From: Candidatus Pacearchaeota archaeon
GTDB lineage: Archaea; Nanobdellota; Nanobdellia; Pacearchaeales; UBA284
Direction of reading: 5' to 3'
Assembly: GCA_026016245.1 (NCBI GenBank)
Contig: CP061211.1
Location: forward strand, 678,725 to 710,724
Length of the DNA stretch: 32,000 nt
The notes beneath the pieces were generated by a model. The model had not been told where the DNA came from, ran no database searches, and worked only from the letters and a program-made list of their open reading frames with translations. The position numbers and the translations under genes were made by a program. Shown piece after piece: positions 16,888 to 32,000 of the stretch. How positions within the stretch are numbered: the stretch's first letter is position 1; each line of letters begins with the position of its first letter.

Positions 16888-18216
16888 ATGCCAGAAGATA
16901 TTATTATTGGAAGGAGTGAGGCTGATAAAAAAAGATTTGGTTCTGAAGCTTTGATATATCTAGGCAAGCATTTTGTGAAGATGGGCCAGATTACTAGTTT
17001 GAGTAATAAGATTATGATGGATGTTGCTCGAGCTCACATAGTTCTTGTGGCAGGAAAGAGAGGAAGTGGAAAATCATACACCTTAGGTGTTATTTCTGAG
17101 GAAATAAGTAATTTGCCTAGGGCTGTCAGTCAAAATATGGCTGTGCTGATTTTTGATACTATGGGAATTTTTTGGACCATGGCTTATAGGAATGAGAAGG
17201 AAAGGGAGTTGTTGAAAGAATGGAGGCTTGAGGCAAGGAAATTGGATGTAAATATTTTTGTTCCTTTTGGTTATGCTGAGAAATGGCGCGAGAAAGGAAT
17301 TCCTGTCACTAAGGAATTTGCTATTAAAGTTAGTGAGATTGAGGTTGATGATTGGATTTTGACTTTTGGATTGGATTTTATTGATCCTATTGCTATTGTT
17401 ATTGCAAGAAATGTTACTAAGTTAAGAGAAGGACTTGAAGAAGAAACTATCAGGGATTTTGATGTTGATGATATAATTAAAGCTATAAGGCTGGATAAAG
17501 ACGCTGGAAAAGATGAGAGAGATGCTGCTGTTAATTTATTTGGAGGGGCTAAGACATGGGGGATTTTTGCTTCTAAAAAACAGAAAGGAACCAAGATTTC
17601 TGAGCTGATAAGTGCTGGCAAAACTTCTGTTCTGGATTTAAGTGCTTATTCAAGTGTTGGAACTGTAAATATTCGCGCTTTGGTTATTGGCATTATTTCA
17701 AAAAAATTGTTTAAGCAAAGAATGACTGCAAGAAAACATGAAGAAATCGAGGCTGTCAGGCATGGTTTAGATTATTTATATTACAAGGAGAAGAGAGAGA
17801 TGCCAATGGTGTGGATTTGTATTGATGAAGGACACGAATTTCTGCCATTGACAGGCAAGACTGCTGCAACTGATGCTCTTATACAGTTGCTTAGAGAAGG
17901 AAGGCAGCCTGGCATAAGTTTGGTTATAGCAACTCAACAGCCTGGTCAAATCCATAAAGATGTTATGACGCAGTCAGATATTGTTGTAAGCCATAGAGTT
18001 ACTGCTAAACCAGATATAGATTCCTTGAATTATATAATGCAGACTTATTTGCTGGCTGATATTAAAACTTATTTAGATAATTTACCTCGGTTGAAAGGTT
18101 CTGCAATCATATTAGATGATAACAGCGAGAGGATTTATCCTATGAGAGTCAGGCCAAGATTCACATGGCATGGTGGTGAAGCCCCAACTGCTGTTAGAGT
18201 AAAAAAAAGAATTTGA
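16888..18216 (+). CDS. HerA/FtsK-superfamily (DUF87-type) P-loop ATPase
   Basis: Walker A is AGKRGSGKSYT and Walker B is VWICIDEGHEF. The HerA-type REGRQPGISLVIATQQP..QSDIVVSHRV motif is present. Only about 50 aa precede Walker A. Confidence 0.8.
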   Translation: MPEDIIIGRSEADKKRFGSEALIYLGKHFVKMGQITSLSNKIMMDVARAHIVLVAGKRGSGKSYTLGVISEEISNLPRAVSQNMAVLIFDTMGIFWTMAYRNEKERELLKEWRLEARKLDVNIFVPFGYAEKWREKGIPVTKEFAIKVSEIEVDDWILTFGLDFIDPIAIVIARNVTKLREGLEEETIRDFDVDDIIKAIRLDKDAGKDERDAAVNLFGGAKTWGIFASKKQKGTKISELISAGKTSVLDLSAYSSVGTVNIRALVIGIISKKLFKQRMTARKHEEIEAVRHGLDYLYYKEKREMPMVWICIDEGHEFLPLTGKTAATDALIQLLREGRQPGISLVIATQQPGQIHKDVMTQSDIVVSHRVTAKPDIDSLNYIMQTYLLADIKTYLDNLPRLKGSAIILDDNSERIYPMRVRPRFTWHGGEAPTAVRVKKRI

Positions 18217-18259
18217 GGAAGGGAATAGTTACTATTGTTTAATGACAATAAACGAAAAG

Positions 18260-18267
18260 TTTATAAG
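18260..18267 (+). promoter_or_regulatory. TATA box TTTATAAG
   Basis: 30 nt upstream of ATG 18290. Confidence 0.5.
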
Positions 18268-18289
18268 TTAGAAATTCTTATTTTTTCTG

Positions 18290-20422: not shown

Positions 20423-20469
20423 ATATTAAACTTAAAGAATAAAAATGTCATCACTCAAAAATAAAAAAT

Positions 20470-20477
20470 TTTATAAG
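20470..20477 (+). promoter_or_regulatory. TATA box TTTATAAG
   Basis: 29 nt upstream of ATG 20499. Confidence 0.5.
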
Positions 20478-20498
20478 ATAAAGAATATTAGTTAAAAA

Positions 20499-21917
20499 AT
20501 GGCAGATAAAAACGAAAACCTTTCAATAATAACCTCAAAAATTGTAGAGGCAGAAATAGGCTGTATTATAAAAACAAAGAAAGGAGATAAATACAGGTTA
20601 GTTGGGACAGCACCGATAACAAAAATAAAAAAAGATTCAACTTTTGGCCCTAGAATTATCGAAATAATAGCTTATAAAAAAGGGCAAAAGAAAGGAAAGA
20701 AGAAATTAGATAGAGATAGAGAAAAAGAAATGAAAAATGAAATTAACAAGATGACTGAAACACTATTTGGTAAAAGCTATGATTATAACAATGAAATCCC
20801 TCTTGATATTCTTTACGAGATGCTAGATAGATATAAGGTAGGTGCTCTTAGAGAATTTGATGAAACTGCAAGAAAAGAGATTTACAAAAAAATTGGGTGG
20901 TATGTAAACTCTAATCCAAATACTCGGATGCAGCACTGTAACAATGAAAACCCTAAAGATAAAATAAGTTTCTCTGAAATTAAAAATAATGATGAAGTTA
21001 AAGTTAGTACATATTTAACTTACGAACCTTATTATTCATTAGAAGACTGCCTTAGAGATATGGACTTGAGCGTGGAGAGTATATATGAAGTTATTGAAAA
21101 AAAAGAAAAAGACAATGATAAAGAAAGAGAAAGAAAATTTGAGGCAAAGAAGAAATTATATTGGAATAAAACAATAAAAGCATTGAGTAACAGGGAATTT
21201 CCTTTAAATCTTGCTTTAGTTCTTCTTTCTTATTCAACTAGTGAAAATATCAGAAGAAAAGCAAAAGAAAATCTTTTTTCATATATAAAGGATGATGTTG
21301 TAATAGATGGTCCAAGATCTAAACAAGATGCACAGCAACTAGATTTTACATTTACTAGGGGAAATGGTGATCATCAACTTGTGGTATATTGGTTAAAATA
21401 TCTGAAAGAAGGAAATCTTCTGAATTCAATTATTGGAAAAATTGCTGAAGATAAAAAGAAGTATCCTGGCGAAGATTTAGAGAGAAAAAAGAAAAGAATT
21501 TATGATCTCTATAATGCTCGTGAAAAAGAAACCTTATATGAAGTTAGTATCAGAGCTAGTGATGTGTTGAAACAGAAAATTATGATTGGAATGATTAAGG
21601 AGGGTGTTGATTATAACTTCTTGGATAGCGCTCTTTTTTCAGACTTATTTGTGTGGAAGGGTAAGAATGATAGAAGAATTATTATGTTGAGACCTTATGA
21701 TGAGAGTTATTTATCTGAACCAGTAAACTTAGATGAAAGGACTAGAAAACTTTCCAAAGATTTGGATAAGTTAAAAATAGAAACAGAGTTACGTAATGAA
21801 TACTACAAAATATTTAGGAATGTAGGTGTTGGAACACAGATAATTAGCGCAGAAGGGAAAGATCTAGTGGAAGTAAAAAATACATTCTTTAAATATATTA
21901 TTCCTTCTATTCTATGA
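20499..21917 (+). CDS. K/E-rich soluble hypothetical protein (472 aa), no motif recognised
   Basis: Long uninterrupted ORF with its own TATA box and no TM segment. Confidence 0.7.
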   Translation: MADKNENLSIITSKIVEAEIGCIIKTKKGDKYRLVGTAPITKIKKDSTFGPRIIEIIAYKKGQKKGKKKLDRDREKEMKNEINKMTETLFGKSYDYNNEIPLDILYEMLDRYKVGALREFDETARKEIYKKIGWYVNSNPNTRMQHCNNENPKDKISFSEIKNNDEVKVSTYLTYEPYYSLEDCLRDMDLSVESIYEVIEKKEKDNDKERERKFEAKKKLYWNKTIKALSNREFPLNLALVLLSYSTSENIRRKAKENLFSYIKDDVVIDGPRSKQDAQQLDFTFTRGNGDHQLVVYWLKYLKEGNLLNSIIGKIAEDKKKYPGEDLERKKKRIYDLYNAREKETLYEVSIRASDVLKQKIMIGMIKEGVDYNFLDSALFSDLFVWKGKNDRRIIMLRPYDESYLSEPVNLDERTRKLSKDLDKLKIETELRNEYYKIFRNVGVGTQIISAEGKDLVEVKNTFFKYIIPSIL

Positions 21918-21951: not shown

Positions 21952-23220
21952 ATGCTTTGGACACATGTAGTATTGTATATTATTGCATATTTTGGCCTGT
22001 TTACAGCTAGTTTTTTTCTCTTGACTTATTTTGGAGGCAGAAAAAAAGAGCGTGATCCTGAACCAAAGCGTTTTCCTTTTGTTTCCATAATCATAAACAT
22101 GTGGAATGAGGAGAAAGCGATAGCTAGAACTATGAGATCTATACTTAACTTAGATTACCCAAAAAACAAGTATGAGATTATTGTTGTTGATGACGGTTCG
22201 ACTGACAGAACTTATGAGATAGCAAAATCTTATTCTGGATCTTTACCCCATGTTCGTGTATTTAAGAAAGAGAATGGCGGAGCAGCCTCAGCAAAAAATT
22301 ATGGTTTGAAAAAAGCTAGAGGAGAGATTATTGCTACTCTTGATGCAGATTCTTTTGTTTCAAAAGATGCCTTAAAAAAGATGGTGGGTTATTTTGAAGA
22401 TAAAGATGTATGGTCTGTTACAGCTGCTTTAAATGTTTACAAGCCCAAAAGATTCCTGCAACATTTACAGTGGGCAGAATACATAATGAGTATCTTTCTA
22501 AGGAAGGTTTTCAGTATAGCAGATGCTATCCATGTTATTCCTGGTCCTTTTTCCCTGTTCAGAAAGGAATTCTTCAAAAAGCATGGAGATTTTGATGAAG
22601 GTAATATAACAGAAGATACAGAAATAGCAATGCGCATACAGTCTTTAGAATATAAAATCAAGAATAGTGTAAGTGCAAACATCTATACTCTCTTACCAAG
22701 CACACTTGGCGGATTAATGAAGCAAAGAATAAGATGGTATTATGGTTTTATACATAATTCTTTACAATATAAACAACTTTTCAATCCAATCAGAAGAAGA
22801 GATAATCTTGCTGTTTTAATTCTTCCAGCAGCACTTATCTCAGTTGTTCTCTCAATTCTTGCTGTCTTCATATTCTTTTATGAAAATATAATTTTGTTGG
22901 AAGATAACGTAATAAGGCTTATGGTAACAGATTTTGATATTTTGCCTAGTTTATTGAGTATTGATTGGGGATATATCAAAGAATTTATTATTAGTTATGT
23001 TTCAAATCCACTTATTGCTTTTATTATAATTGGTATGGCATGCGCTGCTATGCTTATTATTTTAGGGAAAAAAGAATCAAAAGAGAAAAGAAAAATGGTC
23101 TGGGCTTTTGTTTCCTTTTTCCTTACTTACTGGTTTTTTTATGCTTCGTGGTGGATAGGAACTTTTATTTATCGTGGTGTTTTAAGAAGAAAAATTAAGT
23201 GGGGGCCCAGATATTATTAA
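21952..23220 (+). CDS. Membrane-integrated processive family-2 glycosyltransferase (PgaC/IcaA/NodC/cellulose-synthase-like)
   Basis: Motifs VVDDGSTD, LDADS, TEDTE and QRIRWYYG (D,D,D,QxxRW), with TM segments at both ends. Confidence 0.8.
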   Translation: MLWTHVVLYIIAYFGLFTASFFLLTYFGGRKKERDPEPKRFPFVSIIINMWNEEKAIARTMRSILNLDYPKNKYEIIVVDDGSTDRTYEIAKSYSGSLPHVRVFKKENGGAASAKNYGLKKARGEIIATLDADSFVSKDALKKMVGYFEDKDVWSVTAALNVYKPKRFLQHLQWAEYIMSIFLRKVFSIADAIHVIPGPFSLFRKEFFKKHGDFDEGNITEDTEIAMRIQSLEYKIKNSVSANIYTLLPSTLGGLMKQRIRWYYGFIHNSLQYKQLFNPIRRRDNLAVLILPAALISVVLSILAVFIFFYENIILLEDNVIRLMVTDFDILPSLLSIDWGYIKEFIISYVSNPLIAFIIIGMACAAMLIILGKKESKEKRKMVWAFVSFFLTYWFFYASWWIGTFIYRGVLRRKIKWGPRYY

Positions 23221-23227
23221 AAAGAAA

Positions 23228-23920
23228 ATGATAATTGGAAAAAGAGGTATAAGTCATTTTGAATTAATAACAGCGATATTAATTTTTATTTTTGCTATAG
23301 CTGTCATTGTTTATTTTATAAATACTGGTATGAAAATAGACACTTCACAAGCTGTTCTAGATGCTCTTGAAGCCAATCTTAAAGAAAATGCTGAAATTGA
23401 ATATGGAAAGATTTTATTGTTTGCTGATTCTGATGCAAATTGTTTTAATATTTCTCTTCATTCTGATTTAAGTGAGGATTTTCTTACTTTTATTAAAAAT
23501 GGGGATGGTGTTGCTTTTAATTTTTCAAATGGGTGGCTTTTAATAAATAATACAGGACAAAATCTTTACAAAATTTATTTTTTTCCTGTTAATATGACTA
23601 AAGATATAAGGTTAGAAGATGGAGAGTGTACTGAATTAACACAAGGCCAAGATTATAATTATAGCATAATATATCGTGGCAAAATTTTTACAGAAAAAAA
23701 TCTTTCACAGCTTGAAAATATGGATTATGGAAACTTAAAATCAATGTTTAATTTAGGAAATAAGGATTTTGAGATTAGAATTAATGCTTTAGATATTCAT
23801 ATTGGTGAGAAAATTCCGCCAGAGCAGGTTGAGGTTCAGGTAAGAGAGATTTTTGTGGATATTATTTTGGAAGATGGAACAATAATCAAAAAAGCAAAAA
23901 TAAATATGAAAGTTTGGTAA
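23228..23920 (+). CDS. Pilin-like protein with an archaeal class III (type IV prepilin-like) signal
   Basis: Sequence MIIGKRG|ISHFELITAILIFIFAIAVIVYFI has a basic residue, then Gly, then a hydrophobic helix. Confidence 0.55.
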   Translation: MIIGKRGISHFELITAILIFIFAIAVIVYFINTGMKIDTSQAVLDALEANLKENAEIEYGKILLFADSDANCFNISLHSDLSEDFLTFIKNGDGVAFNFSNGWLLINNTGQNLYKIYFFPVNMTKDIRLEDGECTELTQGQDYNYSIIYRGKIFTEKNLSQLENMDYGNLKSMFNLGNKDFEIRINALDIHIGEKIPPEQVEVQVREIFVDIILEDGTIIKKAKINMKVW

Positions 23921-23926
23921 AATAAA

Positions 23927-24349
23927 ATGTTGAAGAGAAAAGAGGGATGGATATTAATTGTTGAATCTGTTATTGCAATTATGATTCTGTTTGGTTTTCT
24001 TTTTACAACAATAGCCAAGCAGTCAGAACAGATAAAAGTTGTGGATAAGGGAGAGTATCTCTATAATGTAGTTAATGAACTTGCATTTAGAGCTGAAAAA
24101 AATGAAACAATAAGAAATTTTGCTCTAAAAGAAAAAAAAGATGAAGTTAAGTCATTATTAATCATTGAACTTAGTGAAATGAATGTTAAAGGAATAATCT
24201 TAGAATCAAAAATTTGTAATCCTGATGATGAATTTTGTGATATTCCTGTATCAGAAGATGTAGGGGATATTTATAGCTCAGAGATTATTATAGCTACAAA
24301 TTCAACAAGTTATGAGACAAAAAAATTAAAAATTTTTATTTGGGAATAA
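23927..24349 (+). CDS. Pilin-like protein with a class III-like signal
   Basis: Sequence MLKRKEG|WILIVESVIAIMILFGFLF has an early Glu after the Gly, as in type IV (pseudo)pilins. Confidence 0.5.
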   Translation: MLKRKEGWILIVESVIAIMILFGFLFTTIAKQSEQIKVVDKGEYLYNVVNELAFRAEKNETIRNFALKEKKDEVKSLLIIELSEMNVKGIILESKICNPDDEFCDIPVSEDVGDIYSSEIIIATNSTSYETKKLKIFIWE

Positions 24350-24365
24350 AAAATGAGGAATAAAA

Positions 24366-24788
24366 ATGAAGAAATATGAATTTCTCGAGCATACAGCTGA
24401 TGTTTTTATAGTTGGAAATGGCAAAACATTAGAAGAGGCTTTTCAAAATTGCGCACTTGGTTTGAGTCAGTATATGGTTAATCTGGGGGATGTTGAAAAG
24501 AAAATTCAGAAAAAAATTATGGCTAAGGGAACTGATTTAAAATCTCTTCTTGTTGAATTTCTAACACAATTTCTGATTTTACATGATTCAGAAAATCTTG
24601 TTTTTTCATCTATAAAAGTAACTAAATTTGATGATAAGAATTTTGAAATCGAGGCTATTATTGAGGGAGAGGAATTTGATCCAGAAAAGCATAAACAAGG
24701 AACTTTAATTAAGGCAATAACATATCATGAGCTTGAGATTAAAGAAAAAGAAGGCATTTATTCAGTAAAAGTCTTAGTGGACATATAA
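24366..24788 (+). CDS. Archease (RtcB activator)
   Basis: Sequence MKKYEFLEHTADVFIVGNGKTLEEAF..IKAITYHELEI. Confidence 0.85.
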   Translation: MKKYEFLEHTADVFIVGNGKTLEEAFQNCALGLSQYMVNLGDVEKKIQKKIMAKGTDLKSLLVEFLTQFLILHDSENLVFSSIKVTKFDDKNFEIEAIIEGEEFDPEKHKQGTLIKAITYHELEIKEKEGIYSVKVLVDI

Positions 24789-24792
24789 TAAG

Positions 24793-26247
24793 ATGGAAAT
24801 TAAGTTAAAGAAAATTTCAGATATTGAATGGGAAATACCTAAAGGCACAATCCAAGGGATGAAGGTTCCAGGAATTGTTTTTGCTTCTAAAATACTTCTT
24901 GAAAAAATGAAATTAGATAAGACATTGCAGCAGACAGCAAATGTAGCAACTTTGCCTGGCATCTATAAACATGCAATTTGTTTGCCAGATGGTCATGAGG
25001 GATATGGTTTTCCTATAGGAGGGGTTGCTGCTCTGGATTTCAAGGAAGGAGGTATTTCTCCTGGAGGAATTGGTTATGATATAAATTGTGGTGTTCGTTT
25101 GCTGAGAACTAGTTTGACTGATAAAGAGATTCATGAAAAATTAAAAGAGCTTGTTATGGCTATTTTTAGAAATGTTCCTTCAGGATTAGGTTCAAAAGGG
25201 AAGGTTAGATTGAGAAGCAGAGCTGAATTAGATGAAGTTTTGAAAATAGGTGCAAGATGGGCAGTTGAAAAAGGTTATGGATGGAAAAAAGATTTAAAAC
25301 ACTTAGAATCAGAAGGCGAACTTAAGATAGCAGAACCAAGATATGTTAGTGATACTGCAATAAAAAGAGGCTTGCCCCAACTAGGAAGTCTTGGTGCTGG
25401 TAATCATTTCTTAGAAATCCAAAGAGTGGGCGAGATTTTTGATGAGAAGACAGCAAAAGTCTTTGGTATAGAAAAAAAAGATCAGATTACTATTATGATT
25501 CATTGTGGTTCTCGTGGATTGGGACATCAAGTGTGTACAGATTATTTGCGTGAGATGGAAAAAACATTTCCAGATATTCTTAAAAAACTGCCTGACAGAG
25601 AATTGATATATGCCCCAGCAGGATCAGAACTTGCTGATAGATACTTGAAGGCAATGAGCTGTGCTGCAAATTATGCATGGGCAAACAGACAGATGATAGT
25701 ACATCAGATAAGAGAATCTTTTGAGAAAGTTTTTAACAGAAGTGCTGAAGATATGGGCATGGATATTATTTATGATGTTGCTCATAATATCGCAAAAATC
25801 GAAACTCATAAAATAAATGGAAAGGATGTGAAGGTTTATATGCATAGGAAAGGTGCGACAAGGGCTTTTGGCCCAGGACATCCAGAGATTCCTTCAGATT
25901 ATCAAAAAGTCGGCCAGCCTGTTTTACTTCCAGGATCAATGGGAACAGCTTCTTTTGTTTTGGTAGGTTCAAAAACTGCTATGGAAAAAACTTTTGGCTC
26001 AACAGCACATGGTGCAGGAAGATTAATGTCAAGACATTCTGCACTAAAACAATTTAGGGGAGAGGAAATAAAAAAGCAGTTGGAAGAAGAGAAAAAAATG
26101 TTTATCAGGAGTGCGTCTTGGAAAGGAATTGCTGAAGAAGCACCAGGAGCTTACAAAGATGTTGAAGAGGTTGCAAGAGTCAGCCATAAGGCAGGCATTG
26201 GAAATCTCGTTGTAAGATTAAGGCCAGTAGGAGTTGTAAAAGGTTGA
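24793..26247 (+). CDS. rtcB: RtcB 3'-phosphate RNA-splicing ligase
   Basis: Motifs GYDINCGVR, GAGNHFLEIQ, HCGSRGLGHQ and STAHGAGR. It is contiguous, with no intein. Confidence 0.95.
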   Translation: MEIKLKKISDIEWEIPKGTIQGMKVPGIVFASKILLEKMKLDKTLQQTANVATLPGIYKHAICLPDGHEGYGFPIGGVAALDFKEGGISPGGIGYDINCGVRLLRTSLTDKEIHEKLKELVMAIFRNVPSGLGSKGKVRLRSRAELDEVLKIGARWAVEKGYGWKKDLKHLESEGELKIAEPRYVSDTAIKRGLPQLGSLGAGNHFLEIQRVGEIFDEKTAKVFGIEKKDQITIMIHCGSRGLGHQVCTDYLREMEKTFPDILKKLPDRELIYAPAGSELADRYLKAMSCAANYAWANRQMIVHQIRESFEKVFNRSAEDMGMDIIYDVAHNIAKIETHKINGKDVKVYMHRKGATRAFGPGHPEIPSDYQKVGQPVLLPGSMGTASFVLVGSKTAMEKTFGSTAHGAGRLMSRHSALKQFRGEEIKKQLEEEKKMFIRSASWKGIAEEAPGAYKDVEEVARVSHKAGIGNLVVRLRPVGVVKG

Positions 26248-26266
26248 GAGTTAAGAAATAAAAATC

Positions 26267-26285
26267 AAAAAAATTTATATAGCAT
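26267..26285 (+). promoter_or_regulatory. BRE/TATA element AAAAAAATTTATATAGCAT
   Basis: The TATA box starts 37 nt upstream of ATG 26311. The 19-mer is identical to 28772-28790. Confidence 0.55.
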
Positions 26286-26310
26286 ATTTGCCCTTTGTTA
26301 TTATAAAAAG

Positions 26311-28773
26311 ATGGTCATTTCAAAAAAGATTGATCATAGAAAGAGAAAAAAAAGAGAGAATTTTTTTGGAATTCCTTTCCTGCCTTTGGCTTTTTTATTA
26401 TTACTTTTGATTGTTCTTTTTCTCTTGCCCCCAATTAAATTGCAGACTTCTGGCATCATGCCTAGCATTACTGGAAAAGTAGTTGATGATATTTATTTAG
26501 AAGAAACAACTTATAGGCCAGATAGACCTTTAGAAGGAGGTCTTAATTTGAGATTTTATTGGGGAGATTTAATTCCTCAAGAAACTAATGTCACTTTTGA
26601 TATCACATCAATAAAATGTAAACATTTTTATGTTTGTGGTTCAGATGGTGGTTTGATTGGGTGGGAGGTATATAATTTTACTAGCGGAAAATGTGAGAAT
26701 GTTTCTGTATGGGTTTATGGACCCTGGGATGAATGCGGGGAAGATAAATATTATACATACCCTAATATATTTAGTAATATTAATTGTGCTGGTTTGGGAG
26801 GAGCTTGCTGTAAATCTGGTGAAGGTTTGGGATATTTCTATCCTAACTTGGATTGCAATACAAAAGAATGCTGGGATGAATGCAAGATAACAAAGAAGAA
26901 AACATTGATTGAATCAATAGCTTTATCAACAACACCTTGGAAGGGAAATCATACTTCTGGGATATTTAATAATGTGAATGGTTCTAATCCTCCTGTAAAT
27001 TCTGGGTGGGGTTTTGGCGCATGTCCTTCTATTGCCCCTGCTCCTAATTATACTTATCCTGTTACTTATGCAATTAATCCTACAGGCTATATTGTCCAAC
27101 AACCATCACCACCACTGCCAGACTTAACTGTTTTAGATATTTACACTTCTGAATATGCCCCTCAACCACCACAACTATCATTATACGCTATCCAGCAACC
27201 AAGCCCAACCAAAAGACTCTACACAAAAATAAAAAATCTTGGAGGGCCAATTGGAAGTAAAAAGGTAAAAGCAGGAGCATTCACTGTTGTTGGCTGTTGG
27301 TATGATTATACTTCTCCAACACCACTAGGACGGGCAGGGCCTATACCTTCTAATTGTTTTTTTATTAAGAGGATTAATAATATGGCACAAAATCAAGAAA
27401 TGATTTTAGATATGGGTAGTTGGAATATACAAGGCAAGGCAGTTCAGGTTATTGTTGATTACTATAAAGAGATAGATGAAAAAAATGAATATAACAATGA
27501 GATGATAAAATATTTCCCTGGAGTAGTGCCGCCAAAACCAGACCTAGTTGTTTTAGATATTCAAAAAAAACAATATGAATCAGTAGAAGGTACGAAGATA
27601 ACAATGAAAAATATTGGTCCTGGTTCTGTTCTTGTAAAGTCTTTCTGGGTTAAAATTACTTATTATATTGGAGCTGAAAGATGGGAAAATGAATATCAGA
27701 TACAGAATCCAGGAATTGCGCCTAATACAGTATTTACTCTTGATGTTAGAGACAAGGATATAACTGGTAAGGCAGTTAATGCCACTGCTTTTGTTGATTC
27801 AAGATATAATGTAGATGAATTGGATGAGAATAATAATGGGTTGACTAAATGGCTATTACCTTATTCTTGTGAGAATTGGAATAATGTTTATGTTATTCCT
27901 TTAGATGATATTGGTTTAAAAACGCCAGATTATGAAGGAACATACATCTTAGATATCTCTCTTGTTTATGGAGATGTTACCATGTACAGTTCTTCAGTAT
28001 TATTCGAAGTTGCTGAAAAAGAACCAACACATAATGTTTGTCAAAACCAAAAGTGTGTAGAGGTAACTGGTGCTGGAACTGATCAGTGTCAGACTAATGC
28101 TGATTGTAAGACTACTTGTAATGAGAACTGGCAGTATGGTGTTTGGAGCGATTGTATAGGCGGACAGAAAAGAAGAGAGTGTTATGATGCTAATAACTGT
28201 AATACAACTTATAGTAAGCCATCAAATTGTATGCTTTTTGCAGGTAAATATTATCAGACTGAGAGCTGTTGTGTTTCAGAATGGCAGTGTGATGAGTGGA
28301 GTGTTTGCTATGATTACCAAGGAGAGAATGTTCAGAGCATGACTTGTGAGGATCTTAATAAATGCAGTCCACAGAATTACACTTACCTACAATTGAGAGA
28401 TTGTTGCATAGAAGAATGGGATTGTGAATGGAGTAGTTGTATTGATGGTAGGCAAGAACTTTTATGTGAGGACTTAAATAATTGTGGTACTGAATTTACC
28501 AAGCCTTCAGAAACAAAAGATTGCGAAGAAAGAGCTATAGCATGGTGGGTTTGGTTTATAATAATCTTGGTGCTTGTTGTAGTAATTCTTGCTGTTCTTA
28601 TTGGAACAAAACGATTACCTTGGTTCAAGAAGAAGCCTAAAGTAAGAAAATATCCTCAGCTTGATGAATATATAAGAAAAGCAACTGAAAGAGGCATGTC
28701 AAAAGCAGAAATAAAAACAAAACTCATTGAAACTGGCTGGCCAGAAGATGCAGTTAGCGAAGCTTTAAAATAA
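26311..28773 (+). CDS. Giant Cys-rich surface protein, paralog 1: signal anchor, 2 CARDB-like domains, 3 W/C-rich repeats, C-terminal TM and a cytoplasmic tail
   Basis: N-terminal FFGIPFLPLAFLLLLLIVLF. CARDB-like PDLTVLDI.. and PDLVVLDIQ..KNIGPGS..ELDENNN. The C-terminal TM is WWVWFIIILVLVVVILAVLIG. Many NxS/T sequons. Confidence 0.8.
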   Translation: MVISKKIDHRKRKKRENFFGIPFLPLAFLLLLLIVLFLLPPIKLQTSGIMPSITGKVVDDIYLEETTYRPDRPLEGGLNLRFYWGDLIPQETNVTFDITSIKCKHFYVCGSDGGLIGWEVYNFTSGKCENVSVWVYGPWDECGEDKYYTYPNIFSNINCAGLGGACCKSGEGLGYFYPNLDCNTKECWDECKITKKKTLIESIALSTTPWKGNHTSGIFNNVNGSNPPVNSGWGFGACPSIAPAPNYTYPVTYAINPTGYIVQQPSPPLPDLTVLDIYTSEYAPQPPQLSLYAIQQPSPTKRLYTKIKNLGGPIGSKKVKAGAFTVVGCWYDYTSPTPLGRAGPIPSNCFFIKRINNMAQNQEMILDMGSWNIQGKAVQVIVDYYKEIDEKNEYNNEMIKYFPGVVPPKPDLVVLDIQKKQYESVEGTKITMKNIGPGSVLVKSFWVKITYYIGAERWENEYQIQNPGIAPNTVFTLDVRDKDITGKAVNATAFVDSRYNVDELDENNNGLTKWLLPYSCENWNNVYVIPLDDIGLKTPDYEGTYILDISLVYGDVTMYSSSVLFEVAEKEPTHNVCQNQKCVEVTGAGTDQCQTNADCKTTCNENWQYGVWSDCIGGQKRRECYDANNCNTTYSKPSNCMLFAGKYYQTESCCVSEWQCDEWSVCYDYQGENVQSMTCEDLNKCSPQNYTYLQLRDCCIEEWDCEWSSCIDGRQELLCEDLNNCGTEFTKPSETKDCEERAIAWWVWFIIILVLVVVILAVLIGTKRLPWFKKKPKVRKYPQLDEYIRKATERGMSKAEIKTKLIETGWPEDAVSEALK
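26357..26420 (+). repeat. Conserved 64-nt block, copy A (N-terminal signal-anchor region)
   Basis: Matches 28838-28901 with 3 mismatches by hand alignment. Confidence 0.8.
27196..27312 (+). repeat. Near-identical 117-nt block, copy A (QPSPTKRLYTKIKNLGGPIGSK.VKAGAFTVVGCWYDYT)
   Basis: Matches 29383-29499 with 2 mismatches by hand alignment. Confidence 0.85.
28344..28512 (+). repeat. Near-identical 169-nt block, copy A (CEDLNKCSPQNYTYLQLRDCCIEEWDCEWSSCIDGRQELLCEDLNNCGTEFTKPSE)
   Basis: Matches 30903-31071 with a single mismatch (28449 T versus 31008 C, synonymous). Confidence 0.9.
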
Positions 28774-28790
28774 AAAAATTTATATAGCAT
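28772..28790 (+). promoter_or_regulatory. BRE/TATA element AAAAAAATTTATATAGCAT
   Basis: The TATA box starts 37 nt upstream of ATG 28816. It duplicates the element at 26267-26285. Confidence 0.55.
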
Positions 28791-28815
28791 CTCTACCGCT
28801 CTTTATTAATAAAAG

Positions 28816-31245
28816 ATGGAAAGATGGAAAGAAAAAAAGAATTTTTTTGGAATTCCTTTCCTGCCTTTAGCTATCTTATTATTACTTTTGATTGTTCTTT
28901 TAGTTTTGCCTCAAGTTAAATTGCAAGGTGATTTCATTACTGGAGAAGTAACTAGCAACATCCAATTAACAGAAACAGATTATGGGCCAAATGAGAATTT
29001 AAAAGGCAAGACAAACATAAAATTTTTCTGGGGTGATTTAATTCCTGGAACAACTAATGTTGAGCTCATAGTTTCTGGTGGTGATTATGGTTCAAATCTA
29101 ACAATGCAATTACCCCAAGCAATAGCTCTCTCAAGCACACCTTGGAAAGGAAATTTTACTTATGGGCCTTTTAAAAATATGAATGGTCCTTCTCCTGTAG
29201 GAGGGGGTTATGGTTTTGGAGCTTGTTCTTCTATTATTCCTGCTCCTAATTACACTTATCCTGTTACTTATGCAGTTCAACAGCCAGTACCAATCACACC
29301 AGACTTAACTGTTTTAAATATTTACACTTCTGGTCTTATCCCTGTTCCAACTTATCCTGCAGTAACAGGTATGATTACTCAACAACCAAGCCCAACCAAA
29401 AGACTCTATACAAAAATAAAAAATCTTGGAGGGCCAATTGGAAGTAAAGAGGTAAAAGCAGGAGCATTCACTGTTGTTGGCTGTTGGTATGATTATACTA
29501 GCCCTACACCAACACCTTTAGTAGCAGTTGATGGTTATATTCCTAGTAATTGTTTTTATATTAAAGATATTTCACAAATAAGATATGGTCAAGAAATAAT
29601 TTTAGATATGGGATACCGAGCTGTTGAAGGCAAAACAGTCCAGGTTATTGTTGATTATTATGATGATATACATGAGACTAATGAGCAGAATAATGAGATG
29701 ATAAAGAATTTTCCAGGAGTAGTTCCCCCTCAATGTATAGATCCTGATGGTTTGGATTATTTCACAAAAGGAACATGCACAGATATTGAAGGGAGCAAAG
29801 TTGATTACTGCAGTCCTGATGCTGAAAATCTTTTAATAGAATATTATTGTCCTACTATAGTACCATCACCTTTATGTGCCCCAACACAATATGTTTGTCC
29901 TAATGGTTGTGAGGATGGAAAATGTCTTGAACAAGAACCTACGCCAGCATGTAAAGACAGTGATGGTGGTAAGAATTATGGATTAAAAGGCACATGCCAA
30001 GATATTGATGGCATGTATACTGACTATTGTCTAGAAATAAGTCCTGGACAAAATGAAGGAAATCTTGCTGAATTCTATTGTACTGGTAATAATTTAATAA
30101 TGTGGGATTTTTGTAGTGATTGTTCTGAGCCTTATTGTGCTTATATTGGATCTAGAAGCGAAGGATGGTATGCCAAATGTCCTAAGGGTGAGAGATTGAT
30201 TAATTATGAAACATGTTCTATCAGAGAGAAATTTAAACCTCAATGCTTGTATAAAGGATCAAAAAGCGAAGGATGGTATACTCCTGATGTTTGTGATAGG
30301 GAAGATTTCAATTGTTATTATGGCTGTTTAGATGGTACTTGTAAAATAAGTAATTATTCTTGTGAAAATTGGAATAATATTTATGAGATTAATTTAAATA
30401 ATTTGAATATAAAGACTCCTCAAGAAGATGGAACTTATAATTTTACTGTAAGATTAACATATGTAGGAGGAGTGCCAGGTATTCGTAATGCTGTTCCAGC
30501 AAAAATAATTCTTTATTCTTATACTACTTCCTTTAATGTGCTTTCTCATAAAGCATGCCAGAGTTACCAGTGTATTTATATGGCTGGAAGCGGAGCTAAC
30601 CAATGTGAAAATGATAATGACTGCCGACCAACTGGTGGAGGTGGCGGCGGTGGCGGCGGAGGAGGCGGAGCCTGCAATGAATATTGGCAGTATGGTGATT
30701 GGAGTGAATGTATTGATGACAAAAGACAGAGAGAGTGTTTTGATGCTAGAAATTGTGGAACAATTTTTGCAAAGCCTTCATATTGCTTGCCTATTGAAGA
30801 TAAATATTATCAGACTGAATCTTGCATACCAGGATGTCAGGAAAACTGGCAGTGTACTGAATGGAGCTATTGTGATGAGCAAACACTTGAGCAGAGTTCT
30901 ATTTGTGAGGATCTTAATAAATGCAGTCCACAGAATTACACTTACCTACAATTGAGAGATTGTTGCATAGAAGAATGGGATTGTGAATGGAGTAGTTGTA
31001 TTGATGGCAGGCAAGAACTTTTATGTGAGGACTTAAATAATTGTGGTACTGAATTTACCAAGCCTTCAGAAGCAAGAGAGTGCAAGCCAGGACTTGCGTG
31101 GTGGATGTTATTGATAATAATTTTAGTGTTTGTTGTAGTAATTCTTGCTATTCTTTATGCGGCAAAGACATGGCCCTTTAAGAAAAAAGGGTTCAAAGCT
31201 GTTGGAAAAACAGAAGAAGCTGCTTTTAAAGAAATCAAAATATAA
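28816..31245 (+). CDS. Giant Cys-rich surface protein, paralog 2: signal anchor, 1 CARDB-like domain, extra Cys-knot-like cassettes, Gly12 linker, 3 W/C-rich repeats and a C-terminal TM
   Basis: It shares N-terminal, central and C-terminal blocks with paralog 1. Its unique cassette spans roughly 29734-30300. Confidence 0.8.
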   Translation: MERWKEKKNFFGIPFLPLAILLLLLIVLLVLPQVKLQGDFITGEVTSNIQLTETDYGPNENLKGKTNIKFFWGDLIPGTTNVELIVSGGDYGSNLTMQLPQAIALSSTPWKGNFTYGPFKNMNGPSPVGGGYGFGACSSIIPAPNYTYPVTYAVQQPVPITPDLTVLNIYTSGLIPVPTYPAVTGMITQQPSPTKRLYTKIKNLGGPIGSKEVKAGAFTVVGCWYDYTSPTPTPLVAVDGYIPSNCFYIKDISQIRYGQEIILDMGYRAVEGKTVQVIVDYYDDIHETNEQNNEMIKNFPGVVPPQCIDPDGLDYFTKGTCTDIEGSKVDYCSPDAENLLIEYYCPTIVPSPLCAPTQYVCPNGCEDGKCLEQEPTPACKDSDGGKNYGLKGTCQDIDGMYTDYCLEISPGQNEGNLAEFYCTGNNLIMWDFCSDCSEPYCAYIGSRSEGWYAKCPKGERLINYETCSIREKFKPQCLYKGSKSEGWYTPDVCDREDFNCYYGCLDGTCKISNYSCENWNNIYEINLNNLNIKTPQEDGTYNFTVRLTYVGGVPGIRNAVPAKIILYSYTTSFNVLSHKACQSYQCIYMAGSGANQCENDNDCRPTGGGGGGGGGGGGACNEYWQYGDWSECIDDKRQRECFDARNCGTIFAKPSYCLPIEDKYYQTESCIPGCQENWQCTEWSYCDEQTLEQSSICEDLNKCSPQNYTYLQLRDCCIEEWDCEWSSCIDGRQELLCEDLNNCGTEFTKPSEARECKPGLAWWMLLIIILVFVVVILAILYAAKTWPFKKKGFKAVGKTEEAAFKEIKI
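28838..28901 (+). repeat. Conserved 64-nt block, copy B
   Basis: Matches 26357-26420. Confidence 0.8.
29383..29499 (+). repeat. Near-identical 117-nt block, copy B
   Basis: Matches 27196-27312. Confidence 0.85.
30634..30669 (+). repeat. Twelve consecutive Gly codons (GC-rich island inside paralog 2)
   Basis: Sequence ggt gga ggt ggc ggc ggt ggc ggc gga gga ggc gga encodes G12. Paralog 1 has no equivalent at this position. Confidence 0.9.
30903..31071 (+). repeat. Near-identical 169-nt block, copy B
   Basis: Matches 28344-28512. Confidence 0.9.
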
Positions 31246-31269
31246 TTCATAATTTTTTTTCTAAAAAAC

Positions 31270-31277
31270 TTTATATA
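31270..31277 (+). promoter_or_regulatory. TATA box TTTATATA
   Basis: 49 nt upstream of ATG 31319. SD-like GAGGG lies 4-8 nt before the ATG. Confidence 0.45.
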
Positions 31278-31318
31278 TCCTATTTCTTTTAAAAATTTTG
31301 TAGTGTAAAAGAGGGAAA

Positions 31319-31999
31319 ATGGCATATAAACGTTATATTAAAATAGGTAATAAAGTCTATGGCCCTTATGAGTACCACAGTTATAGAGATAAAAATGGTA
31401 GTGTAAAAAGCCATTATTTGAGAAAAGTAGAAAAAGTAAAGAAAGAAAATGTAGAACTGAGAAAAAAACTGCGTTTTCTTGAATTAAGTGCCAGTATTCT
31501 TCTAATTTTAGTTGCTCTTTTTTTAATTTTTTATCTTACTACCTTTCCAATAACTGGAAGACTTGGTCTTGAACTTGAAAAATCTTATTTTTTTGTAAAT
31601 GAAACATTAAGTGGGTATGTTAATTTGGAATTTACTGAAGGAGAATTTTATCCTGCTGATTCTATCATAAAAATAAATTTTAATGGACAAATTGAAGAAT
31701 TGACTTTAGAGGAATTCATTGCTCTTTCTGGAGAGGATAGTCTTGAAAAAAAAGAAGAAAATTTTTACACTACTATGGATGATAAAATTGAAGGACATGG
31801 GGAAGGATATGGTCTTATAGGTTCAAAAGATATTCCTGTTGATGTTTCTTTCAAATTGATAACTATGAAAGAAATACTTGGAATAGAAGAAGCTATTGAA
31901 AATATAACTGAAGAAAATATCACAGAGCCATTAGAAGAAAATATCACTGAGATTGAAGAAGAACCAATAGAAGAACTAGAAGAACCAGAAGAACCAATA
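31319..31999 (+). CDS. Third member of the surface-protein array (partial, runs off the window end)
   Basis: Absent from the ORF track because it is open-ended. My translation is MAYKRYIKIGNKVYGPYEYHSYRD..LSASILLILVALFLIFYL..LSGYVNLEFTEGEFYPADS..GHGEGYGLIG..ENITEENITEPLEENITE. The block after the TM segment parallels LNLRFYWGDLIP and TNIKFFWGDLIP in paralogs 1 and 2. Confidence 0.65.
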   Translation, partial: MAYKRYIKIGNKVYGPYEYHSYRDKNGSVKSHYLRKVEKVKKENVELRKKLRFLELSASILLILVALFLIFYLTTFPITGRLGLELEKSYFFVNETLSGYVNLEFTEGEFYPADSIIKINFNGQIEELTLEEFIALSGEDSLEKKEENFYTTMDDKIEGHGEGYGLIGSKDIPVDVSFKLITMKEILGIEEAIENITEENITEPLEENITEIEEEPIEELEEPEEPI

Positions 32000-32000
32000 G

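What the first reader, a model, noticed from the sequence alone, without database searches (positions are those of the whole stretch)
26267..32000. Tandem array of three paralogous Cys-rich membrane-anchored surface proteins with conserved ends and swapped central cassettes
The 820-aa and 809-aa proteins share several blocks. These are a duplicated promoter, an N-terminal signal anchor (FFGIPFLPLA.LLLLLIVL), a W-K-G-N/G-F-G-A-C block, a CARDB-like domain, a YSCENWNN block, three C-terminal W/C repeats and a TM anchor. Between these blocks each carries unique inserts. Paralog 1 has a 100-aa Cys-rich insert (about 26611-26910) and a second CARDB-like domain (about 27529-27850). Paralog 2 has a roughly 200-aa cassette of other Cys motifs (29734-30300) and a Gly12 linker. 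A third gene (31319 onward) begins with a related post-TM block. This modular variable-middle, constant-ends layout is what one expects of host-attachment or adhesin families under diversifying selection. Each protein has dozens of cysteines, implying extensive extracellular disulfide bonding.
Basis: partly seen in the sequence, partly recalled or inferred. Interest (0 to 1): 0.7.

Follow-up and report, generated by a model that had tools for sequence, protein, structure and literature searches.

The report
Paired cysteine-rich archaeal surface proteins
Two neighbouring genes of a tiny Pacearchaeota archaeon encode related, disulfide-rich, membrane-anchored surface proteins built mostly from small domains no database describes. 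The pair is old and conserved, and its two genes exchange DNA segments with each other rather than forming a fast-changing cassette system.

Summary
The sequence observation holds. P1 (26311-28773, 820 aa, 36 Cys) and P2 (28816-31245, 809 aa, 48 Cys) are true paralogues (BLASTP 8e-85, 7e-82, 3e-14). They share a promoter, an N-terminal anchor, CARDB-like sandwiches, three W/C repeats and a C-terminal TM. The third gene shares only the N-terminal leader module. It is the orthologue of a 2139-aa LamG/beta-helix giant, not a third paralogue.

The window is from a Pacearchaeota MAG. RtcB, a P1-type gene, a P2-type gene and a giant protein recur in that order in at least six related genomes. P2-type architecture (A-C-D-F-F-G-H-I-Gly run-3xWC-TM) is invariant. 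P1-type varies only in F-cassette number (0-2). dN/dS is 0.10-0.45 in every module, so diversifying cassette variation is not supported.

The paralogues are mosaics of gene conversion. One 169-nt tract differs at a single base, and P1's C-D block derives from P2 (bootstrap 100/100).

The WC repeat (~41 aa, 6 Cys) and the F cassette (~64 aa, 6 Cys) are mobile domains, up to 10 and 22 copies per protein. They occur in many DPANN proteins and a few Patescibacteria proteins. Neither matches Pfam, NCBIfam or PDB sequences.

Most likely these are stalk-and-head envelope or adhesion proteins. The function is inferred.

The parts
26262..26310 (+). P1 promoter region with a BRE/TATA-like box (AAAAATTTATATAGCAT at 26269-26285), about 27 nt before the ATG
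   Evidence: 79% identical over 53 nt to the P2 upstream region (D10). The box is conserved upstream of the orthologues in L001. The motif occurs 4 times in 32 kb, three of them here.
26311..28773 (+). P1, 820 aa, a P1-type protein with modules A-B-C-D-E-H-I-WC-WC-WC-TM-N
   Evidence: ORF. 100% identical to an NCBI 'hypothetical protein IB618_04295 [Candidatus Pacearchaeota archaeon]'. Module HMMs. AF2 model pLDDT 70.7.
26311..26610 (+). P1 module A: basic N-terminus, hydrophobic anchor FFGIPFLPLAFLLLLLIVLFLL, ITG motif and the first beta strands
   Evidence: Hydropathy. Helix 23-38. MVISKKIDYRKRKKRE-FFGIPFLPL is nearly invariant across the family.
26611..26904 (+). P1 module B: a 98-aa insert with 10 Cys, absent from P2
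   Evidence: Module BLAST. Best-modelled part of P1, pLDDT 85-93. Present in all P1-type proteins.
26905..27528 (+). P1 modules C (WKGN...GFGAC) and D (CARDB-like sandwich 1). This block derives from the P2 lineage.
   Evidence: C+D of P1 is 69% identical to P2, 58% to its own orthologue and 33-46% to other P1-types. The clade {P1, P1_L001, P2, P2_L001} has 100/100 bootstrap.
27193..27324 (+). Recent gene-conversion tract 2 (P1 copy); its partner is 29380-29511
   Evidence: 95% identity over 132 nt with a 50-nt exact core. Third-codon identity is 0.97 here against about 0.6 in the flanks. The orthologue is only 0.61 identical here.
27529..27858 (+). P1 module E: a bona fide CARDB domain, absent from P2
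   Evidence: Pfam PF07705, 36 bits, aa 409-513. A PDB profile search hits only the CARDB structures 2l0d, 2kl6 and 3idu.
27859..28116 (+). P1 modules H (YSCENWNN sandwich) and I (4-Cys hairpin C..C...G.G.DQC...DC)
   Evidence: Invariant Y518, C520, W523 and N525. Module HMMs.
28117..28524 (+). P1 three W/C repeats (6 Cys each), the membrane-proximal stalk
   Evidence: HMM domains at aa 603-653, 654-698 and 699-738. All Cys and Trp are invariant. Each repeat has about three strands in the model.
28344..28512 (+). Recent gene-conversion tract 1 (P1 copy, WC2 end and WC3); its partner is 30903-31071
   Evidence: One mismatch in 169 nt. P1-P2 nucleotide identity is 0.99 here, while P1-orthologue is 0.73. 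The L001 paralogues are also raised to 0.81 here.
28525..28770 (+). P1 C-terminal TM helix plus a 45-aa cytoplasmic three-helix tail (YIRKATERGMSKAEIKTKLIETGWPEDAV)
   Evidence: Hydropathy. Helices 745-766, 782-793, 798-807 and 812-819. The tail is conserved in all P1-types and in many other WC proteins.
28774..28815 (+). P2 promoter with the same BRE/TATA-like box
28816..31245 (+). P2, 809 aa, a P2-type protein with modules A-C-D-F-F-G-H-I-Gly12-WC-WC-WC-TM and the C-terminal motif FKEIKI
   Evidence: ORF. Orthologues P0009 and P0170-P0173 are 49-70% identical over 98-100% of the length. Architecture. The exact sequence is absent from the protein and contig collections.
29728..30123 (+). P2 F cassettes a and b (CxDxDGG..KG.C.D..G...D.C....L.EYYC....C..GC.DG.C)
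   Evidence: HMM domains at aa 305-373 and 377-436. Fa is modelled at pLDDT 76-94. The same cassette occurs once or twice in most P1-type proteins of other genomes.
30112..30351 (+). P2 module G: two 'Y.GS+SEGWY' units nested before the closing C..GC.DG.C hairpin of cassette Fb
   Evidence: Internal DNA repeat 30142-30171 / 30250-30279, 87% identical (D12). Conserved in all P2-types. Not confidently modelled, pLDDT 30-48. The nesting is read from the sequence.
30634..30669 (+). Gly12 linker between hairpin I and the WC stalk, with mixed GGN codons
   Evidence: Gly runs of 9-11 sit at the same place in the P2-type orthologues.
30673..31083 (+). P2 three W/C repeats
   Evidence: HMM domains at aa 620-670, 674-716 and 717-756. 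pLDDT 72-88.
31084..31242 (+). P2 TM helix and a short cytoplasmic tail ending in FKEIKI
   Evidence: Hydropathy. The C-terminal F[KT]E[IV]K[IV] is conserved in seven genomes.
31319..32000 (+). 5' end of gene 3: a giant surface protein that shares only leader module A with P1 and P2
   Evidence: 69% identical to the start of the 2139-aa L001 protein, which carries Laminin_G_3, Beta_helix and Y_Y_Y. The A-module HMM hits aa 41-122. No Cys.

Best explanation
P1 and P2 are an old, conserved pair of paralogous envelope proteins of one Pacearchaeota (DPANN) clade.

Topology and layout:
- Each protein is held in the membrane by a C-terminal TM helix and probably also by an uncleaved N-terminal anchor.
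- Each exposes a roughly 700-aa ectodomain in which every cysteine lies (36 and 48, both even numbers), so the ectodomain is probably fully disulfide-bonded.
- The membrane-proximal part is a constant, rigid stalk. It consists of the H sandwich, the 4-Cys hairpin and three 6-Cys W/C repeats.
- The distal part is a head. It consists of the A/C leader domain, CARDB-type sandwiches and small Cys-rich modules B, F and G.
- The head most likely contacts other surfaces, such as a host cell or a mineral, or neighbouring envelope proteins. It may do so together with the LamG/beta-helix giant encoded next door.

Evolution:
- The two genes diverged by module loss and gain. P1-type keeps B, the CARDB domain E and a cytoplasmic three-helix tail. 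P2-type keeps F-F with the nested G insert, a Gly linker and an FKEIKI tail.
- They evolve under purifying selection.
- They repeatedly overwrite parts of each other by gene conversion. In this lineage one such event replaced P1's C-D block with P2 sequence, and it probably removed P1's two F cassettes at the junction.

Shown here: paralogy, architecture, conservation, selection regime and conversion.
Inferred: surface exposure, disulfide bonding, the stalk-and-head arrangement and the adhesion or envelope function.
For: - Paralogy.
- Lineage: P0001 is named Pacearchaeota, and the related loci are Pacearchaeota or Woesearchaeota MAGs.
- Conserved synteny of FKBP/Trx(-), DUF87 ATPase, two proteins, two pilin-like proteins, archease, RtcB, P1-type, P2-type and the giant.
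- Architectures by module HMMs.
- P2-type orthologues at 49-70% identity end to end.
- dN/dS is 0.10-0.45 in all modules.
- P2-type monophyly 99/100. The C+D clade mixing P1 and P2 of the same lineage 100/100.
- Near-identical tracts within 60-70% identical genes, with synonymous sites also identical.
- All Cys lie between the two hydrophobic segments, at 4.4% and 5.9% against mostly 0-2% elsewhere.
- The Cys of the stalk are invariant.
- The models are all-beta ectodomains with terminal helices.
- Whole-chain fold hits are tandem Ig-like arrays of extracellular proteins.
- The CARDB domain is recognised.
- There are 9 and 6 N-X-S/T sequons.
- The neighbouring giant carries LamG and beta-helix domains.
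- WC and F modules recur in hundreds of DPANN proteins alongside S_layer_C, PKD, dockerin, LamG and PG-binding domains.
Against: - There is no experimental or proteomic evidence for expression, localisation or binding.
- No signal-peptide or topology predictor was available, so N-terminal cleavage is undecided.
- No known adhesin, lectin or S-layer family matches except CARDB.
- Domain-level fold matches are not significant.
- Two related loci (L006, L007) have a P1-type gene without an adjacent P2-type. An obligate P1/P2 complex is therefore not required everywhere.
- dS is about 0.9, near saturation, so dN/dS is approximate. Site-level positive selection was not tested.
Confidence: 0.55

Rival explanations
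1. Structural envelope or S-layer-like pair. P1-type and P2-type would be the main building blocks, or the membrane anchors, of the Pacearchaeota cell envelope, analogous to two-gene S-layer systems. The WC stalk would set the spacing and the heads would form a canopy. Adhesion would be secondary.
For: - The two genes are adjacent, conserved and under purifying selection, with invariant architecture.
- Each has its own canonical BRE/TATA box, one of only four such matches in 32 kb.
- The C-terminal TM anchor is typical of many archaeal S-layer proteins (established knowledge).
- F cassettes co-occur with Pfam S_layer_C (PF05124) in other proteins (P0174, P0186).
- A membrane-anchored FKBP/thioredoxin-like protein lies in the conserved neighbourhood.
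Against: - No S-layer family hits P1 or P2.
- P2-type is missing next to P1-type in L006 and L007.
- The full-length family was found in only 8 of the 185,579 species genomes scanned (a pattern-based scan), so it is not a general Pacearchaeota envelope component.
- Expression level is unknown.
Confidence: 0.25
2. One reading: a host-attachment adhesin family under diversifying selection, in which central cassettes are exchanged to vary the surface.
For: - Across the wider superfamily the middle modules vary in number and order between constant ends.
- F-cassette number differs (0, 1 or 2) among P1-type orthologues.
- The paralogues demonstrably exchange sequence.
- Cultivated DPANN archaea are episymbionts (abstracts listed).
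Against: - P2-type layout is invariant in seven genomes.
- dN/dS is 0.10-0.45 in every module, including the 'unique' cassettes: B 0.24, E 0.28, Fa 0.15, Fb 0.21, G 0.16.
- Only two copies are present, with no silent cassette reservoir in the 32-kb window.
- The most recent conversion tracts lie in the constant stalk and in sandwich D, so they homogenise rather than diversify.
- P1 and P2 are about as conserved between genomes (63% and 70%) as their neighbours.
Confidence: 0.12
3. Transmembrane receptor or signalling pair. The ectodomain would sense a ligand. The conserved cytoplasmic three-helix tail of P1-type, and the FKEIKI tail of P2-type, would relay the signal to cytoplasmic partners.
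For: - Both the cytoplasmic tail and the basic N-terminus are strongly conserved.
- The tail folds as three helices at pLDDT of about 80.
- The tail travels with WC repeats in unrelated proteins, giving the W-W-N architectures.
Against: - The tail matches no signalling domain. The only hit is a weak RecX_HTH1 match, E 0.015-0.04.
- No kinase or regulator is linked in the conserved neighbourhood.
- A 45-aa tail could equally be an anchoring or sorting element.
Confidence: 0.08

Closest known systems
CARDB-domain cell-surface proteins of archaea and bacteria (Pfam PF07705; solved examples 2l0d, 2kl6, 3idu)
   Same: P1 module E is a recognised CARDB beta-sandwich. Module D ends in the CARDB-like D.Y..I.E.NE.NN motif. 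These are extracellular multi-domain proteins.
   Different: CARDB accounts for only about 110 of 820 residues. P2 scores below the Pfam cut-off. The rest (A/C, B, F, G, H, I, WC, tail) has no family.
Thrombospondin type-1 repeat (TSR) and the TSR-like domains of pleiotrophin and midkine
   Same: The WC repeat is about 41 aa with 6 Cys and two Trp in the first strand. A 'WS.C...G.Q.R.C' stretch resembles the TSR 'WS.CS..CG.G.Q.R.R.C'. It has about three strands per repeat and occurs in tandem in extracellular proteins. The best Foldseek hits of the P2 model are pleiotrophin 2n6f, its C-terminal domain 8voi_B (prob 0.91, TM 0.60) and midkine 2luu.
   Different: Nothing is significant. Foldseek E is 0.1-2. 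There is no Pfam TSP_1 hit at E<=1 and no TSR protein in a PDB profile search. The Trp spacing is W-x4-W, not W-x2-W.
SPEARE and other giant surface proteins of DPANN archaea (Nanohaloarchaeota; Hamm et al. 2019, PMC6642349, listed; the description is from my own knowledge)
   Same: They are lineage-specific, multi-domain, predicted surface proteins of host-dependent ultra-small archaea. The neighbouring gene 3 orthologue has LamG and beta-helix modules.
   Different: P1 and P2 are about 800 aa, are Cys-rich and have no protease or nuclease modules. No sequence relationship was found.
Two-gene archaeal S-layer systems (for example SlaA/SlaB of Sulfolobales; from my own knowledge)
   Same: Adjacent genes, one or both products membrane-anchored through a C-terminal TM with a stalk, and conserved within a lineage.
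   Different: SlaA and SlaB are not paralogues of each other and are not Cys-rich. There is no sequence or fold match here.
Cys-rich type I membrane protein families of Giardia (VSP, HCMP; papers listed)
   Same: High Cys content in repeated motifs, a single C-terminal TM and a short conserved cytoplasmic tail.
   Different: Those are large multigene families with antigenic switching and CXXC motifs. Here there are two conserved copies under purifying selection. No homology is implied.

Membership tests
CARDB (PF07705) | Score above the Pfam gathering threshold (22.7 bits) | tested here: met
   P1 scores 36.0 bits at aa 409-513. P2 scores only 17.1 bits (aa 270-295), so for P2 and for module D the test is not met or is inconclusive.
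CARDB (PF07705) | Beta-sandwich fold related to solved CARDB structures | tested here: inconclusive
   The family profile hits 2l0d, 2kl6 and 3idu at E 0.02-0.15. The model shows a seven-strand region at pLDDT of about 85. No domain-level superposition was possible.
Thrombospondin type-1 repeat (TSP_1, PF00090) | Sequence-profile match to TSP_1 | tested here: not met
   No Pfam hit at E<=1 for P1 or P2 and none at E<=0.1 for WC-rich proteins. No TSR chain appears in a PDB profile search at E<=10.
Thrombospondin type-1 repeat (TSP_1, PF00090) | Three-stranded fold with a Trp/Arg ladder and three disulfides | tested here: inconclusive
   There are 6 Cys, 2 Trp, a QTR strand and about three strands per repeat. 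The best fold hits are TSR-like pleiotrophin and midkine domains, but at E 0.1-2.
Archaeal S-layer proteins (for example S_layer_C PF05124, SlaA/SlaB) | Match to an S-layer family model | tested here: not met
   No such hit in Pfam or NCBIfam.
Archaeal S-layer proteins (for example S_layer_C PF05124, SlaA/SlaB) | Forms the regular, abundant outer lattice | not testable with these tools
   This needs proteomics or cryo-ET.
Variable surface-antigen or cassette-switching adhesin systems | Hypervariable region with an excess of non-synonymous change | tested here: not met
   dN/dS is 0.10-0.45 in all modules between the window and L001. Site models and population data were not tested.
Variable surface-antigen or cassette-switching adhesin systems | Cassette content differs between close relatives, or a reservoir of silent cassettes exists | tested here: not met
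   The window and L001 have identical architectures. P2-type is invariant in seven genomes. P1-type differs only in F count between distant relatives. No further copies lie in the window.
DPANN SPEARE proteins | Giant protein with serine protease, adhesion and restriction-endonuclease domains | tested here: not met
   P1 and P2 are 820 and 809 aa, and CARDB is their only Pfam family above its gathering cut-off. The gene 3 orthologue has LamG, beta-helix and Y_Y_Y only.

The most novel reading that the evidence does not exclude
The W/C repeat is a genuine archaeal relative of the thrombospondin type-1 / pleiotrophin-type repeat. The conserved locus (HerA-like ATPase with hypervariable partners, two pilin-like proteins, P1-type, P2-type and the LamG/beta-helix giant) then encodes a dedicated cell-contact apparatus of Pacearchaeota. 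In that apparatus the two orphan conserved cysteines (C238 in GFGAC, C520 in YSCENW) tie the constant head to the constant stalk. The middle modules would form an exchangeable loop that inter-paralogue gene conversion can rewrite.
Probability: 0.1. Interest if true: 0.75.

Novelty: new variant of a known kind. Interest (0 to 1): 0.42.

Why it matters
Pacearchaeota are abundant, uncultivated, ultra-small archaea. How they contact hosts or surfaces is unknown, and their surface proteins are annotated as 'hypothetical'.

This locus supplies several usable results:
- A precise domain grammar for one conserved pair of envelope proteins.
- Two widespread disulfide-rich domain families, the WC repeat and the F cassette. 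With CARDB and the other modules they produce thousands of profile hits, and neither has a Pfam, NCBIfam or PDB counterpart. Both could be turned into family models and structural targets.
- A clear case of concerted evolution between tandem paralogues in a reduced archaeal genome.

It also corrects an attractive but unsupported reading, that of diversifying cassette swapping. The result is useful rather than surprising. Modular Cys-rich surface proteins are expected in DPANN, and the function remains inferred.

Tried and rejected
- **Third paralogue.** Rejected. Gene 3 shares only module A.
- **Low-complexity artefact.** Rejected by composition-corrected E-values and invariant Cys/Trp columns.
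- **Extending the window.** Exact-sequence contig look-ups for P1 and P2 found nothing on record.
- **Whole-chain fold search of P1.** It gave only generic tandem Ig-like arrays (C3/alpha-2-macroglobulin MG domains, transglutaminase barrels, arrestin, WxLIP), TM <= 0.25.
- **Fold search of P2 aa 304-760.** Nothing at E <= 1e-3 against PDB or viral models.
- **Curated families for WC and F.** PDB sequence profiles, Pfam and NCBIfam gave nothing.
- **Third large protein search.** Run with the 41-aa WC profile, it returned no candidates and was wasted.
- **Defence-system models.** PADLOC hits neither P1 nor P2.
- **Literature.** Searches for DPANN or Pacearchaeota with cysteine-rich, adhesion, thrombospondin and protein-family terms found nothing on this family.
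- **Module HMM error.** A first module-HMM run mislabelled F cassettes as E because of an off-by-one column boundary. It was corrected.
- **Timed-out script.** The first bootstrap script hit the time limit. It was rerun with a faster distance calculation.

Full report
**What is in the sequence**

The region holds two intact ORFs on the + strand. P1 runs 26311-28773 (820 aa) and P2 runs 28816-31245 (809 aa). Gene 3 begins at 31319 and runs off the window.

P1 has 36 cysteines and P2 has 48. All of them lie between an N-terminal and a C-terminal hydrophobic segment. That is 4.4% and 5.9% Cys, against mostly 0-2% (at most 3.6%) in the other 28 ORFs of the window.

BLASTP with composition correction aligns P1 and P2 in three collinear blocks:
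- aa 10-99 with 2-87, E 3e-14
- aa 199-445 with 99-344, E 7e-82
- aa 518-775 with 514-791, E 8e-85

The paralogy is therefore real and is not low-complexity similarity.

The 53 nt upstream of each start are 79% identical and contain AAAAATTTATATAGCAT, an archaeal BRE/TATA-like box about 27 nt before the ATG. A near-identical box precedes gene 3, and only one further match exists in the 32 kb.

**The third gene**

The first 227 aa of gene 3 contain no Cys. They are 69% identical to the start of a 2139-aa protein at the same position in a related genome (L001). That protein carries Laminin_G_3, right-handed beta-helix and Y_Y_Y domains.

Pairwise similarity between gene 3 and P1 is marginal (E 0.06). 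An HMM of the family's leader module A (TM, ITG motif and about 45 aa) does match gene 3 and two orthologous giants, at 21-25 bits. The following module C does not match.

Gene 3 is nevertheless a different protein that shares only a leader module, not a third paralogue.

**Source and relatives**

P1 is identical to an NCBI 'hypothetical protein' of a Candidatus Pacearchaeota MAG, on a contig of 710,724 bp. Only 13 proteins in 5.8 billion clusters match P1 by the word-indexed search.

P2 has five full-length orthologues at 49-70% identity. Its own exact sequence is absent from the collections, so it is probably unannotated in the source record.

A scan of 185,579 species genomes found full-length members in only eight MAGs. 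They are labelled Pacearchaeota, Woesearchaeota, 'archaeon' and, in one case, 'Bathyarchaeota'.

The gene order is conserved in L001, L002/L010 and L003/L004:
- a membrane FKBP/thioredoxin-like gene on the minus strand
- a DUF87/HerA ATPase
- two proteins
- two small pilin-like proteins
- archease and RtcB
- a P1-type gene
- a P2-type gene
- the giant protein

The P1-type/P2-type pair also recurs in L009, L011 and on the contig that carries P0011 and P0170.

**Module grammar**

I split the proteins into modules and built HMMs for each.

- P1-type is A-B-C-D-[F x 0-2]-E-H-I-WC-WC-WC-TM-N.
- There are two F cassettes in L002, L003, L007, L009, L011, P0008, P0010 and P0011.
- There is one F cassette in P0004, P0005 and P0006.
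- There are none in the window, L001 and L006.
- P2-type is A-C-D-F-F-G-H-I-Gly run-WC-WC-WC-TM, ending in F[KT]E[IV]K[IV]. This layout is identical in all seven genomes.

Reading the sequence, module G is two 'Y.GS.SEGWY' units. They are nested between the 'EFYC' of the second F cassette and that cassette's closing 'C..GC.DG.C' hairpin. P2's 'unique cassette' is thus F-F with an insertion.

Two loci, L006 and L007, have a P1-type gene with no adjacent P2-type gene.

An exhaustive profile search of 1.84 billion representatives returned 6120 hits at E <= 1e-3, of which 176 were at E <= 1e-30. In the closer hits the ends are constant (A-(B)-C ... H-(I)-WC-WC-(WC)-(TM)-N). The middle varies in number and order of D, E, F and G. 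'Constant ends, variable middle' therefore holds for the superfamily, but not for these two orthologous lineages.

**The small Cys-rich domains**

The WC repeat has this consensus: CxExWxCxxWSxCxxGxQTRxCxDxNxCGTxxxKPxxxxxC.

The F cassette has this consensus: CxDSDGGxxYxxKGTx(8)DxCx(5)LxEYYCx(11)CxxGCxDGxC.

Both behave as independent mobile domains. Among 231 fetched proteins, WC occurs in 83 (1-10 copies) and F in 180 (1-22 copies). Some proteins, such as P0042, alternate the two.

Named carriers are Pacearchaeota, Woesearchaeota, Nanoarchaeia, Bilamarchaeaceae and Iainarchaeum, plus single MAGs labelled Patescibacteria and Methanosarcinales.

Neither domain matches Pfam, NCBIfam or any PDB sequence.

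**Structure**

AF2 on the 14-sequence family alignment gave a P1 model with pLDDT 70.7 and pTM 0.40:
- an N-terminal helix
- an all-beta ectodomain (module B 85-93, CARDB about 85, WC about 70)
- a TM helix
- a three-helix cytoplasmic tail

A second model covered P2 aa 304-760, with pLDDT 68. Fa was 76-94, Fb 55-74 and WC 72-88. G was not modelled (30-48).

Foldseek of the whole P1 model finds only generic tandem Ig-like arrays. For the P2 fragment nothing reaches E 1e-3. The top hits are pleiotrophin (2n6f, E 0.1), its C-terminal TSR-like domain (8voi_B, probability 0.91, TM 0.60 over 46 columns) and midkine.

**Selection and exchange**

Between the window and its closest relative L001, Nei-Gojobori dN/dS is 0.10-0.45 in every module. 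This includes the modules unique to one paralogue: B 0.24, E 0.28, Fa 0.15, Fb 0.21, G 0.16. dS is about 0.9, so the values are approximate.

P1 and P2 are 63% and 70% identical to their orthologues. That lies within the range of the neighbours: DUF87 83%, FKBP/Trx 74%, and the pilin-like proteins 56% and 51%. This does not fit diversifying selection.

Along most of the genes the orthologues are more alike (0.7-0.85 nucleotide identity) than the paralogues (0.4-0.7). Two tracts invert this pattern:
- 28344-28512 against 30903-31071 has one mismatch in 169 nt. P1 versus its orthologue is 0.73 there.
- 27193-27324 against 29380-29511 is 95% identical. P1 versus its orthologue is 0.61 there.

Third codon positions are equally identical in these tracts. 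The L001 paralogues are independently homogenised in the WC3 region (0.81) and at aa 587-627 (0.86).

An NJ bootstrap analysis gives two contrasting results:
- On H+I+WC1+WC2, the P2-types are monophyletic (99/100).
- On C+D, {P1, P1_L001, P2, P2_L001} form a clade (100/100). P1's C+D is 69% identical to P2 but only 33-46% identical to other P1-types.

The most economical reading is an ancient duplication followed by recurrent gene conversion. One older P2-to-P1 event ends exactly at the D/F boundary ('FPGVVPP'), which is where P1 of this lineage lacks the two F cassettes. That last step is inferred.

**How it most likely works**

The following is inferred from anatomy.

The basic, nearly invariant N-terminus and its long hydrophobic stretch suggest an uncleaved anchor. 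With the C-terminal TM helix, the ectodomain would then be held at both ends. If the N-terminus is in fact cleaved, these are type I proteins.

The invariant H-I-3xWC segment, with 22 conserved Cys next to the membrane, would form a rigid disulfide-stapled stalk. The A/C domain, the CARDB sandwiches and the B, F and G modules would form the exposed head.

Two conserved 'orphan' cysteines, C238 and C520, are both present in 39 of 40 proteins that have both modules, and both are absent in the remaining one. This hints at a disulfide that ties head to stalk, but it rests on a single covariation event.

The domain types, the adjacent LamG/beta-helix giant and the episymbiotic biology of cultivated DPANN archaea favour a role in cell-surface contact or envelope architecture.

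**Verdict**

The claims of 'three paralogues' and 'diversifying cassette swapping' are not supported.

The proteins belong to no described family beyond one CARDB domain. They are built from widespread but uncurated DPANN domains. That makes this a new variant of a known kind (modular archaeal surface proteins) and of moderate interest.

Noticed in passing
window 16888-21917: A DUF87/HerA-like ATPase (442 aa) is 79-83% identical across related genomes. It gives PADLOC HerA/mad8 hits (E 5e-19). It is followed by two soluble proteins (710 and 472 aa) with no detectable similarity to their positional counterparts in the closest relative. The one exception is the first 17 residues (MAELESLFNGNGKPLVK vs MSGLESLFNGDGRLPVK). 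This looks like hypervariable partners of a conserved ATPase, and may be more variable than the finding itself.
   Followed up: partly
window 23228-24349: Two small proteins (230 and 140 aa) have N-termini that resemble archaeal type IV pilin (class III) signals: MIIGKRG|ISHFELITAILIF and MLKRKEG|WILIVESVIAIMILF. They are conserved in synteny at 36-56% identity.
   Followed up: partly
window 15302-16798 (-): A 498-aa protein has an N-terminal TM, an FKBP domain and a weak DsbA/GILT-like thioredoxin region (YCPYG motif). It is conserved at the edge of the same neighbourhood in all related loci. It is a candidate extracytoplasmic folding factor near the Cys- and Pro-rich proteins.
   Followed up: partly
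window 24366-26247: The archease and RtcB of the window are only 32-34% and 50% identical to those of all four related loci, whereas flanking genes are 63-83% identical to L001. This suggests that the pair was replaced or is unusually divergent in this genome.
   Followed up: no
window 21952-23220: A family-2 glycosyltransferase (422 aa, TM segments) has no counterpart at this position in L001-L004.
   Followed up: no
window 28816-31245: The exact P2 protein is absent from the 15-billion-protein collection and from the contig index, although P1 from the same contig is present. The intact 809-aa ORF is probably unannotated or annotated differently in the public record.
   Followed up: partly
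P1 aa 238 and 520 (window 27022-27024, 27868-27870) and P2 equivalents: Two conserved cysteines lie outside the Cys-rich modules, in GFGAC and YSCENW. Both are present in 39 of 40 proteins with both modules, and both are absent in the one exception (P0025). They may form an inter-module disulfide.
   Followed up: partly
family alignment A2; for example P1 aa 52-57 and 256-262: A short motif, [IV]TG.[AV][IV], follows the N-terminal anchor and recurs at inter-domain linkers in many family members. Examples are ITGKVV, PTGYIV, DITGRAIV and GITGQAV. Its meaning is unknown.
   Followed up: no
window 31319-31430; L001 15000 onward; L007 about 3100 onward: The giant proteins start with a conserved cytoplasmic motif, MAYKRYIKIG.K[VL]YGPYEYHSYR..DGSVKS.Y, before their TM segment. 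It has no Pfam match.
   Followed up: no
window 31189-31242 and P2-type orthologues: P2-type proteins end in a conserved acidic stretch plus F[KT]E[IV]K[IV] at the very C-terminus. P1-types carry the three-helix tail instead. This may be a sorting or interaction motif.
   Followed up: no
L007 (JAIMAA010000054.1): A contig labelled 'Candidatus Bathyarchaeota' carries a typical P1-type gene and the giant-protein gene of this Pacearchaeota family. It is probably mis-binned.
   Followed up: no
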